Of a DNA stretch of 64,000 nt, positions 31,248 through 31,554 are shown piece after piece (the stretch's first letter is position 1; every line of letters begins with the position of its first letter). The position numbers and the translations under genes were made by a program. A model generated the notes under the pieces. That model saw nothing but the letters and a program-made list of their open reading frames with translations, ran no database searches and was not told the DNA's origin. This stretch comes from Escherichia coli (GTDB taxonomy: Bacteria > Pseudomonadota > Gammaproteobacteria > Enterobacterales > Enterobacteriaceae): the NCBI RefSeq assembly GCF_024298765.1, contig NZ_CP101210.1. One strand, written 5' to 3'.

Positions 31248-31267
31248 TCTCCATCGTTGATAAAAAA

Positions 31268-31292
31268 GGGCTGCCGACCGGCGGCCCTTTTT
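31268..31292 (+). terminator. glmS Rho-independent terminator; position of attTn7 in E. coli
   Basis: GC hairpin gggctgccgaccggcggccc followed by ttttt about 20 bp after the glmS stop. No Tn7 end sequences follow, so the site is not occupied by Tn7. Confidence 0.75.
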
Positions 31293-31554
31293 CATAAGTG
31301 ATATCAATAAATTCATTATTCATATACCCATCGATATAAATATATTCTGAATTATTATTAATGTCTGATAATAAACTTGATTTTTTGCTGTTTTAATAAT
31401 ATTTAAATAATTAATTTATATTAAAATGCGACCAATTAATATTATTTTTAGATAAAATCATCTCTTTGATGTACTATGCCTTTGAATCAAAAAGGTACCT
31501 ATTAATATAGGTGATGATTCATGGTAAAGGATATATTATATCAATGGAGTTTTT

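What the first reader, a model, noticed from the sequence alone, without database searches (positions are those of the whole stretch)
31248..31300. attTn7 is unoccupied, and the fimbrial island begins immediately distal to it
The glmS 3' end and terminator, which form the Tn7 attachment site, are intact. No Tn7 end repeats follow. Instead the AT-rich fimbrial island starts within a few bp of the terminator T-tract. This shows that the glmS-pstS gap acts as a general insertion hotspot and gives a precise left junction for the island.
Basis: partly seen in the sequence, partly recalled or inferred. Interest (0 to 1): 0.3.

Follow-up and report, generated by a model that had tools for sequence, protein, structure and literature searches.

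The report
Empty Tn7 site beside ancestral fimbrial operon
This E. coli strain has an ordinary, empty Tn7 docking site just after the glmS gene. The fimbrial genes that follow are not an island inserted at a hotspot but an old operon (lpf2/stg) found at the same place in at least six genera, so the finding is correct in part and already known.

Summary
The window is E. coli: glmS (29418-31247), a four-gene lpfABCD operon of the lpf-O113 type (31555-36534), then pstS (36782).

**What holds up**
- attTn7 is intact and empty.
- The 36-bp TnsD recognition sequence (31212-31247) is identical to K-12.
- No Tn7 ends, TnsB sites or tns genes occur anywhere in the window.
- Strain Jnd12 carries this same allele with Tn7 inserted. 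Its 5-bp target duplication is GGGCT, which is window 31268-31272, centred 23 nt after the stop codon. The window has a single GGGCT.
- An empty site is the default. Only 87 of 5,426 complete E. coli genomes carry canonical Tn7 here.

**What does not hold up**
- The left junction is wrong. Similarity to the lpf-less K-12 allele ends 1 nt after the stop codon (31248) and resumes at 36677, at the pstS Pho boxes. The terminator (31262-31292) and the Tn7 insertion point therefore lie inside the allele-specific DNA.
- There are no flanking repeats and no integrase.
- A "general insertion hotspot" is not supported. About 99% of genomes carry one of three alleles. Homologous fimbrial operons sit between glmS and pstS in Salmonella (stg), Kluyvera, Enterobacter and Superficieibacter, and directly after glmS in Citrobacter. 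Published work already calls this locus ancestral.

Verdict: ordinary and already known.

The parts
29418..31247 (+). glmS coding sequence (609 aa)
   Evidence: ORF list. Pfam SIS and GATase domains. Annotated glmS in the near-identical strain 104.
31212..31247 (+). TnsD recognition sequence of attTn7: the last 36 bp of glmS including the stop codon
   Evidence: Identical to K-12 over all 36 bp. The 36-bp site at the glmS 3' end is sufficient for targeting according to PMC2918618.
31248..31267 (+). 20-nt spacer between the stop codon and the Tn7 target duplication. It is already allele-specific from 31249 onward.
   Evidence: All three E. coli alleles share only 1 nt after TAA. The same 20-nt offset is seen in occupied sites of all three alleles.
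31268..31272 (+). Tn7 insertion point (the 5-bp target GGGCT), single copy and therefore unoccupied
   Evidence: GGGCT is duplicated on either side of Tn7 in Jnd12, which has the same allele. The same right-hand junction is seen in 1EC213, SCU-105 and ETEC4077.
31262..31292 (+). glmS Rho-independent terminator of this allele: A-run, 8-bp GC stem with GACC loop, T-run. Its shape could work in both directions.
   Evidence: Free energy -22 kcal/mol, z = -4.7. Differs in sequence from the K-12 terminator. Sub-threshold Rfam sRNA hits on both strands are driven by this hairpin.
31293..31554 (+). AT-rich (20-26% GC) region upstream of lpfA, presumed regulatory
   Evidence: Composition profile. Promoter-like hexamers are no more frequent than in shuffles. 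The regulatory role is inferred, not tested.
31555..32127 (+). lpfA (O113 type), major fimbrial subunit
   Evidence: Pfam Fimbrial, E = 6e-24. Annotated lpfA-O113.
32175..32906 (+). lpfB, periplasmic chaperone
   Evidence: Pfam PapD_N and PapD_C. Annotation.
32931..35453 (+). lpfC, outer-membrane usher
   Evidence: Pfam Usher, PapC_N and PapC_C. Homologues at 65-68% identity directly downstream of glmS in five other genera.
35464..36534 (+). lpfD, fimbrial subunit and presumed tip adhesin
   Evidence: Pfam Fimbrial in the C-terminal half.
36541..36569 (+). Hairpin after lpfD, probably the operon terminator
   Evidence: Free energy -19.4 kcal/mol, z = -5.6. Function inferred.
31249..36676 (.). 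Allele-specific segment (5,428 bp) that stands in place of the 207-bp private spacer of K-12-type genomes
   Evidence: Prefix and suffix comparison and blastn of the three alleles. Megablast matches to lpf-less genomes stop at query position 249, which is window 31248.
36677..36781 (+). pstS promoter with Pho boxes, shared by all alleles
   Evidence: 96-98% identity over 105 bp among the three E. coli alleles. The Pho-box core is also recognisable in Kluyvera and in metagenome contig L129. The Pho-box identification rests on established knowledge of the pstS promoter.
36782..37822 (+). pstS
   Evidence: ORF list. Pfam PBP_like_2. Annotation.

Best explanation
The interval is the ordinary, empty Tn7 attachment site of an E. 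coli strain whose glmS-pstS spacer holds the lpf2/stg-family fimbrial operon in its lpf-O113 variant.

How attTn7 works here:
- TnsD would bind the conserved last 36 bp of glmS (31212-31247).
- TnsABC would then insert Tn7 at a fixed distance, duplicating GGGCT (31268-31272). That point is the start of the 5' arm of the glmS terminator hairpin.
- Tn7R would lie next to glmS.
- Nothing has inserted in this strain.

The fimbrial operon was not inserted next to attTn7. It is an old operon that keeps the same position in several enterobacterial genera. It has its own terminator and AT-rich upstream region on the glmS side. In K-12-like E. coli it is missing, with a different short spacer in its place.

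Shown: the recognition sequence, the insertion point and its emptiness, the allele boundaries, and the cross-genus synteny. Inferred: that the operon was inherited from a common ancestor and then lost in some lineages, with alleles possibly exchanged by homologous recombination through glmS and pstS.
For: - The TnsD 36-mer is identical to K-12. That site alone is sufficient, and the sequence at the insertion point is irrelevant (PMC2918618).
- Natural insertions exist in this allele type. 29 genomes have Tn7 between glmS and lpfA-O113, five of them with the window's own variant. Both junctions were read in Jnd12, with target duplication GGGCT 20 nt after TAA.
- The offset is the same in 55 K-12-type sites (GCGGG) and 3 O157-type sites (AAGGG).
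- No Tn7 DNA or Tns proteins occur in the window.
- Allele boundaries are at 31248/31249 and 36676/36677. No junction repeats exceed chance.
- The only genes in the gap are the four chaperone-usher genes.
- The order glmU-glmS-fimbrial operon-pstSCAB-phoU is found in Kluyvera, Enterobacter, Superficieibacter and Salmonella. Citrobacter has glmS followed by the fimbrial operon.
- The literature calls Lpf/Stg ancient and at an identical locus (PMC3559732; PMC3373541).
Against: - The K-12-type private 207 bp has no detectable similarity to any lpf/stg locus. A simple deletion of the operon therefore does not explain the lpf-less allele, and its origin is unexplained.
- The two E. coli lpf alleles are only about 66% identical at the DNA level across the usher region. 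That is deeper than expected for vertical divergence within one species, so some horizontal exchange is likely.
- No ancestral-state reconstruction was done here. The ancestry claim rests on synteny in six genera plus two published analyses.
- Functional Tn7 targeting in this particular strain was not tested, and cannot be with these tools.
Confidence: 0.85

Rival explanations
1. The fimbrial cluster is a horizontally acquired island that inserted just beyond the glmS terminator. The terminator T-tract marks its left junction, and the glmS-pstS gap is a general insertion hotspot.
For: - The operon is absent from 3,066 of 5,426 E. coli genomes.
- GC content drops sharply after the T-run, and the operon averages about 45% GC against about 52% in the flanks.
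- Tn7 and a larger Tn7-like resistance element do insert in this gap.
- In Citrobacter freundii, unrelated genes (WYL, YfjT, HNH) follow the fimbrial operon where pstS would be expected.
Against: - Similarity to the lpf-less allele ends at 31248, not after the T-run. The terminator itself is allele-specific.
- There is no integrase, no transposase and no flanking repeats.
- Only three alleles account for about 99% of genomes, and two of them are homologous.
- The same operon type is at the same position in five other genera.
- The literature regards it as ancestral.
Confidence: 0.07
2. The lpf cluster was delivered to attTn7 long ago as cargo of a Tn7-like element. That element has since lost its ends and transposition genes, leaving a fixed genomic island.
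For: - Tn7-like elements are known to form islands downstream of glmS (established knowledge, recalled and not retrieved here).
- A larger Tn7-like resistance element occupies this very site in three genomes.
Against: - The allele-specific DNA starts 1 nt after the stop codon, not at the +21 to +25 target position.
- The bases after 31272 (GCCGACC...) are not a TGT... transposon end.
- No TnsB-site-like repeats occur at either end, and no tns remnants occur in the gap or elsewhere in the window.
- The right boundary coincides with a functional promoter element, not with an inverted terminal repeat.
Confidence: 0.03
3. The locus is old in the family, but the lpf-O113 allele in E. coli was imported from another species by homologous recombination through the conserved glmS and pstS flanks. 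On this reading, presence, absence and allele type reflect recombination rather than vertical descent with loss.
For: - The two E. coli lpf alleles differ by about 34% at the DNA level across the usher region, while the flanks differ by only 2-3%.
- The boundaries fall exactly where functional constraint begins, at the stop codon and the Pho boxes.
- Ushers at 80-83% identity exist on unnamed metagenome contigs with the same lpfABCD-pstS order. These could be a donor lineage.
Against: - No recombination breakpoint or excess divergence near the junctions is visible in glmS or pstS. Differences are spread evenly.
- The organism behind the 80-83% contigs is unknown.
- This reading complements the best explanation rather than excluding it.
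Confidence: 0.35

Closest known systems
attTn7 of E. coli K-12 (TnsD target at the glmS 3' end, with insertion in the glmS terminator)
   Same: - Identical 36-bp TnsD recognition sequence.
- Same 20-nt gap between the stop codon and the 5-bp duplication, and same orientation with Tn7R next to glmS.
- The insertion point lies inside the terminator hairpin.
   Different: - The DNA at and beyond the insertion point is unrelated. The target is GGGCT in the 5' arm of a different hairpin, whereas K-12 has GCGGG in the 3' arm.
- lpfA lies downstream, not pstS.
lpf-O113 / Stg fimbrial cluster of E. coli (also called lpf2-type, 'lpfB1', or 'Lpf' in the Wurpel classification)
   Same: - Four genes, lpfABCD, between glmS and pstS.
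- RefSeq annotates the identical proteins as LpfA/B/C-O113.
- This location and four-gene make-up are described in PMC6033998 and PMC12750587.
   Different: Nothing of substance. The window carries a less common sequence variant: only 73 genomes are 99% or more identical over the junction query, and most lpf-O113 genomes are about 93%.
O-island 154 (lpf2) of E. coli O157:H7
   Same: - Same locus, and a homologous chaperone-usher operon.
- The terminator hairpin stem is nearly the same (GGGCTGCC-loop-GGCGGCCC) at almost the same distance from the stop codon.
   Different: - Only about 66% DNA identity across the usher region.
- Five genes instead of four.
- A 699-bp rather than 307-bp upstream region.
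- Different flanks around the hairpin.
[quoted passage not shown]
   Same: - Four-gene chaperone-usher operon directly after glmS and, except in the Citrobacter contig, directly before pstS.
- Usher 65-68% identical.
- Each has its own hairpin terminator about 15-22 nt after the glmS stop.
   Different: Non-coding DNA is not conserved between genera. Subunit and adhesin genes vary in length.
Genomic islands formed by Tn7-like elements at glmS
   Same: The position downstream of glmS. Real examples at this same site occur in other E. coli: canonical Tn7 with a class 2 integron, and a larger multi-resistance Tn7-like element.
   Different: The lpf segment has no transposon ends, no tns genes and no target duplication, and it does not start at the Tn7 insertion point.

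Membership tests
Functional attTn7 (TnsD-dependent Tn7 target) | Conserved 36-bp TnsD-binding sequence at the 3' end of the glmS coding region | tested here: met
   31212-31247 is identical to K-12 at 36 of 36 positions. Sufficiency of this site is stated in PMC2918618.
Functional attTn7 (TnsD-dependent Tn7 target) | Insertion at a fixed point about 20-25 bp past the stop codon, with a 5-bp duplication and Tn7R next to glmS | tested here: met
   Jnd12, with the same allele, has the GGGCT duplication at the equivalent of 31268-31272 and Tn7R/tnsA on the glmS side. 29 lpf-O113 genomes are occupied.
Functional attTn7 (TnsD-dependent Tn7 target) | Transposition into the site demonstrated in this very strain | not testable with these tools
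   Needs a mini-Tn7 assay.
Resident Tn7 or Tn7-like element (occupied site) | Terminal TGT...ACA ends with arrays of 22-bp TnsB-binding repeats | tested here: not met
   The best matches are 13-nt chance hits. No terminus match within 3 mismatches lies near the site.
Resident Tn7 or Tn7-like element (occupied site) | tnsABC(D/E) genes or their remnants | tested here: not met
   tblastn of TnsA-D against the window gives best E = 0.4. blastn with a full Tn7 finds nothing.
Resident Tn7 or Tn7-like element (occupied site) | Duplicated 5-bp target flanking an insert | tested here: not met
   GGGCT is present once and is directly continuous with the hairpin.
Integrative genomic island | Integrase, recombinase or transposase gene | tested here: not met
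   The only ORFs with family matches in 31248-36781 are the four chaperone-usher genes.
Integrative genomic island | Flanking direct repeats or target-site duplication | tested here: not met
   The longest shared word between the two junction regions is 9 nt. 40% of shuffles do as well.
Integrative genomic island | Simple insertion relative to an empty site, with the empty-site sequence conserved on both sides of the insert | tested here: not met
   The lpf-less allele has 207 private bp that are absent from the lpf alleles. Only 1 nt after the stop codon is shared.
Integrative genomic island | Absent from related taxa (recent acquisition) | tested here: not met
   A homologous operon lies at the same locus in Salmonella, Kluyvera, Enterobacter, Superficieibacter and Citrobacter.
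Integrative genomic island | Base composition that deviates from the flanking core genome | tested here: inconclusive
   The operon is about 45% GC against about 52% in the flanks, and the upstream region is 20-26%. This is typical of fimbrial operons and is not diagnostic.
lpf2/stg-family chaperone-usher fimbrial operon | Major subunit, PapD-type chaperone, usher and a further subunit or adhesin in one operon | tested here: met
   Pfam Fimbrial; PapD_N and PapD_C; Usher, PapC_N and PapC_C; Fimbrial.
lpf2/stg-family chaperone-usher fimbrial operon | Located between glmS and pstS | tested here: met
   The locus definition is given in PMC6033998.
lpf2/stg-family chaperone-usher fimbrial operon | Assembly of fimbriae and adhesion | not testable with these tools
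   Needs expression and electron microscopy or adhesion assays.
Rho-independent terminator | GC-rich hairpin followed directly by a T-run | tested here: met
   8-bp stem, GACC loop, TTTTT. Free energy -22 kcal/mol, z = -4.7.
Rho-independent terminator | glmS transcript 3' ends map to the T-run | not testable with these tools
   Needs Term-seq or 3' RACE.

The most novel reading that the evidence does not exclude
In all eight alleles and genera examined, the position that Tn7 would duplicate (nt 21-25 after the glmS stop) falls inside the stem of the glmS terminator hairpin, although the hairpin sequences differ from one another. In the lpf-type E. coli alleles the duplication covers the first bases of the 5' arm. 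Insertion therefore rebuilds a complete terminator on the Tn7L side, as seen in Jnd12, while glmS loses its own. This co-location might be selected rather than coincidental. Tn7's fixed offset could be tuned to the usual terminator position, so that transcription leaving the transposon is insulated from downstream genes.
Probability: 0.1. Interest if true: 0.3.

Novelty: already known. Interest (0 to 1): 0.1.

Why it matters
It matters little as a discovery. An empty attTn7 is the state of more than 98% of complete E. coli genomes. The lpf/stg cluster between glmS and pstS has been described for two decades and is regarded as ancestral.

The useful outcome is a correction:
- The boundary of the variable segment lies at the glmS stop codon, not after the terminator.
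- The Tn7 insertion point lies inside the variable segment.
- Tn7 nevertheless uses the same 20-nt offset in all three alleles. This agrees with the published rule that only the TnsD site matters.

There is also a practical point. In lpf-positive strains a mini-Tn7 will land between glmS and lpfA, and checks that use glmS and pstS primers must allow for an extra 5.4-7 kb.

Tried and rejected
**(1) Hairpin scan of 100,044 species' genomes.** I scanned for the motif GGGCTGCCNNNNGGCGGCCCTTTT, hoping to find the same terminator after glmS in other species. The motif is a generic terminator shape. The E. albertii and Superficieibacter hits are not linked to glmS. This used the only genome-contig scan and gave nothing useful. 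The usher protein search and context look-ups answered the question instead.

**(2) Rfam.** Nothing reached a family's gathering score. Several sRNA families (STnc70 at 24 bits against 40 needed, STnc370, STnc430, MicX) match weakly on both strands, only through the terminator hairpin. The idea of an antisense sRNA was rejected.

**(3) The consensus terminator scan** did not list the glmS hairpin. The probable reason is that the A-run and T-run pair in its stem extension and leave no free T tail. Folding shows the hairpin clearly.

**(4) Remnants of the K-12 private spacer** inside the lpf alleles or the loci of other genera: none found.

**(5) Recombination footprint in the flanks.** Differences from K-12 and O157 are spread evenly through glmS and pstS, with no cluster next to the junctions. 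This is uninformative.

**(6) Identity with strain 104.** The window is not that strain. It is 99.985% identical over 59.5 kb, and strain 104 carries an extra IS.

Full report
**What is in the window.** The 64-kb window is E. coli chromosome. It runs from an rRNA operon through rbs, kup, asnA, mioC, mnmG, the atp operon, glmU and glmS, a four-gene fimbrial operon, pstSCAB-phoU, bgl and tna, to mnmE and yidC. This gene order comes from the annotation of strain 104, which is 99.985% identical over 59.5 kb but is not the same strain.
- glmS occupies 29418-31247.
- The fimbrial genes are lpfA 31555-32127, lpfB 32175-32906, lpfC 32931-35453 and lpfD 35464-36534. Their Pfam matches are those expected of a chaperone-usher system. 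RefSeq names the identical proteins LpfA/B/C-O113.
- pstS starts at 36782.

**Checking the observation.**
- The last 36 bp of glmS (31212-31247) are identical to K-12.
- A strong hairpin with a T-run follows at 31262-31292. It has an 8-bp GC stem and a GACC loop, with free energy -22 kcal/mol and z = -4.7.
- GC content falls to 20-26% straight after the T-run and stays there until lpfA.
- No Tn7 ends follow. The best matches to Tn7L and Tn7R anywhere in the window are 13-nt chance hits. There is no near match to the TGTGGGCGGACAA terminus and nothing like a TnsB site.
- The window encodes no TnsA, B, C or D (best tblastn E = 0.4) and shares no DNA with a complete 16-kb Tn7.
- The Tn7L sequence I used came from memory. 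It matched 118 E. coli genomes at 100%, so it is correct.

**Direct proof that the site is empty, and where the site is.** I built chimeric queries joining the Tn7L end to the DNA expected beyond the insertion point.
- 29 complete genomes have Tn7 between glmS and lpfA-O113. Five of them carry the window's own sequence variant.
- In strain Jnd12 both junctions read ...GTTGAGTAA TCTCCATCGTTGATAAAAAA GGGCT | TGTGGGCGGACAATAAAG (Tn7R, then tnsABCD, then a class 2 integron with dfrA1-sat2-aadA1, then Tn7L) ...GTCCGCCCACA | GGGCT GCCGACCGGCGGCCCTTTTT.
- The 5-bp target duplication is therefore GGGCT, which is window 31268-31272. It is centred 23 nt after the stop codon and forms the first five bases of the 5' arm of the terminator hairpin.
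- The window has one GGGCT running straight into the hairpin, so the site is unoccupied and carries no scar.
- The same right-hand junction is seen in 1EC213 and SCU-105. ETEC4077 has it too, with a variant transposon end, CCGTCTACA.
- The same 20-nt offset holds in the other two alleles. 55 K-12-type genomes are occupied with target GCGGG, and 3 O157-type genomes with target AAGGG.
- This matches the published rule: the 36-bp TnsD site at the end of glmS is sufficient, and the sequence at the insertion point does not matter (PMC2918618).
- Occupancy is similar across alleles: roughly 1.5% for lpf-O113, 1.8% for K-12 type (some of these are engineered laboratory strains) and 0.8% for O157 type. 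In total 87 of 5,426 genomes carry canonical Tn7 here. An empty site is the normal state.

**Where the variable DNA really begins.** Megablast of 31000-31700 against 5,426 complete E. coli genomes shows three classes.
- Genomes without lpf match only to query position 249, which is window 31248.
- O157-type genomes match to 292.
- lpf-O113 genomes match throughout.

Base-by-base comparison confirms that the three alleles share a single nucleotide after TAA. They become alike again only at 36677 (TGTCATAAAACTGTCAT, the pstS Pho boxes), 105 bp before the pstS start. The allele-specific segment is therefore 31249-36676 (5,428 bp).

In K-12-type genomes the segment is replaced by 207 private bp. 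These include a different terminator (GATGCCCTGCGTAAGCGGGGCATTTTT) and have no counterpart in any lpf or stg locus.

The terminator and the Tn7 insertion point are both inside the variable segment. What begins after the T-run is the AT-rich region upstream of lpfA. The two junction regions share no direct or inverted repeats beyond chance: the longest is 9 nt, reached by 40% of shuffles. The gap holds no integrase or transposase.

**Is the gap a general insertion hotspot?** The census says no.
- The K-12-type spacer is present in 3,066 genomes.
- The lpf-O113 junction is present in 1,920 genomes, plus 29 split by Tn7.
- The O157 lpf2 upstream region is present in 355 genomes.
- Together these make about 99% of 5,426 genomes.

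The two lpf alleles are homologous operons, though deeply diverged: about 66% DNA identity across the usher region. They share an almost identical terminator stem at nearly the same distance from the stop codon. The only true insertions seen in the gap are Tn7 and a larger Tn7-like multi-resistance element. Both arrive through the dedicated TnsD pathway.

**The operon is syntenic across genera.** A search with the usher found two groups of relatives.
- Relatives at 80-83% identity sit on unnamed metagenome contigs with the order lpfABCD-pstS.
- A broad set at 65-68% identity comes from Salmonella, Kluyvera, Citrobacter, Enterobacter, Klebsiella and Superficieibacter.

I looked up the genomic context in five of these genera.
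- Kluyvera ascorbata, an Enterobacter genome assembled from a metagenome, Superficieibacter and Salmonella enterica all show glmU-glmS-(subunit, chaperone, usher, subunit/adhesin)-pstSCAB-phoU.
- Citrobacter freundii shows glmS followed by the same operon type and then other genes.

Each genus has its own A-run/hairpin/T-run terminator starting 15-22 nt after the glmS stop, followed by AT-rich DNA.

The literature agrees.
- Yue et al. give stg as the orthologue of lpf2, kept at the same locus in S. bongori (PMC3373541).
- The glmS-pstS location of lpf2 and lpf-O113 is stated in PMC6033998 and PMC12750587.

From memory, not retrieved here: Doughty et al. 2002 described lpf-O113, and Lymberopoulos et al. 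2006 described Stg fimbriae of avian E. coli at this locus.

**Most likely mechanism.**
- Shown: TnsD's recognition sequence is intact. Tn7 would insert at 31268-31272 with Tn7R towards glmS. Nothing has inserted.
- Shown: the fimbrial operon is a long-standing resident of the glmS-pstS interval in Enterobacteriaceae.
- Inferred: E. coli lineages such as K-12 have lost the operon. How they came to have an unrelated 207-bp spacer is unexplained.
- Inferred: the co-existence of two very divergent lpf alleles within E. coli, against flanks that differ by only 2-3%, points to allele exchange by homologous recombination through glmS and pstS. I saw no breakpoint signal in the flanks, so this remains open.
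- Rejected: a decayed Tn7-like carrier. The variable DNA does not start at the Tn7 target position and has no transposon ends or tns remnants.

**A small regularity.** In all eight alleles and genera compared, the predicted Tn7 target (nt 21-25 after the stop) falls within the terminator stem. In the lpf-type E. coli alleles the duplication rebuilds the whole hairpin on the Tn7L side, as seen in Jnd12. This is probably a consequence of where terminators usually sit. I record it as the most novel reading not excluded, at low probability.

**Verdict.**
- Observation: confirmed.
- Interpretation: partly supported. The empty attTn7 is right. The left junction and the hotspot claim are wrong.
- Novelty: everything here is already known biology.
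- Interest: low (0.1).

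Noticed in passing
L128 (E. coli 23CRST027, NZ_AP045789.1), locus 1-20000. Also JX21CE8 and 23CRST031 (H166-H168).: A large (over 20 kb) Tn7-like multi-resistance element sits at the predicted attTn7 point of an O157-type lpf2 allele. It shares only the last ~19 nt of the Tn7L end. It carries a non-class-2 integron integrase, dfrA1, TEM-1, sul3, estX-aadA1-qacL, IS26 copies and Tn3 remnants.
   Followed up: partly
L140 (E. coli ETEC4077) 255-270: A Tn7-family element with a variant left terminus (TTGTCCGTCTACA instead of TTGTCCGCCCACA) is inserted at the same GGGCT target in an lpf-O113 allele.
   Followed up: no
window about 59,500, between tnaC and mnmE. Strain 104 locus L127 28039-29247.: The closest complete genome (strain 104) has a 1.3-kb IS4-family ISVsa5 (IS10-like) insertion here that the window lacks. 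The window is therefore a close relative of that strain, not that strain.
   Followed up: partly
window about 47,932 (yieL): A single indel separates the window from strain 104 in yieL, which is annotated as frameshifted in strain 104. I did not check which version is intact.
   Followed up: no
L134 (Citrobacter freundii) 10718-16517: In this Citrobacter contig the fimbrial operon after glmS is followed not by pstS but by genes with WYL, YfjT and HNH_2 domains and several with no family hit. This may be a mobile or defence insert on the pstS side of the operon.
   Followed up: no
E. coli VE-F5 (NZ_AP027953.1), one search hit H125: The K-12-type glmS-pstS spacer matches only from position 100 onward and occurs at two places in the record. 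Something interrupts or duplicates the spacer about 100 bp past glmS, away from the Tn7 point.
   Followed up: no
L001 (K-12) 2845-2885: The K-12-private part of the spacer contains extra Pho-box-like words (CTGTCAC, CTGTCAT) upstream of the shared Pho boxes. The lpf alleles lack this stretch, so the DNA upstream of the pstS promoter differs between alleles.
   Followed up: no
L129-L131 (metagenome contigs ERZ10621108, ERR2855813, ERZ19632642): These carry an lpfABCD-pstS cluster whose usher is 83% identical to the window's. That is intermediate between the E. coli allele and the alleles of other genera. The organism is unknown. It could be another Escherichia species or a donor lineage.
   Followed up: partly
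Genome-contig scan: The 20-base hairpin-plus-T motif GGGCTGCCNNNNGGCGGCCCTTTT occurs in more than 120 unrelated genomes (Rhodobacteraceae, Clostridia, Bacteroidota and others). About 0.5 would be expected by chance. It is a recurrent terminator shape and is unsuitable as a homology probe.
   Followed up: partly
window 17,074-17,451, between mioC and mnmG: Going by the gene order in the near-identical annotated strain, the chromosomal replication origin oriC should lie in this interval. I did not examine it.
   Followed up: no
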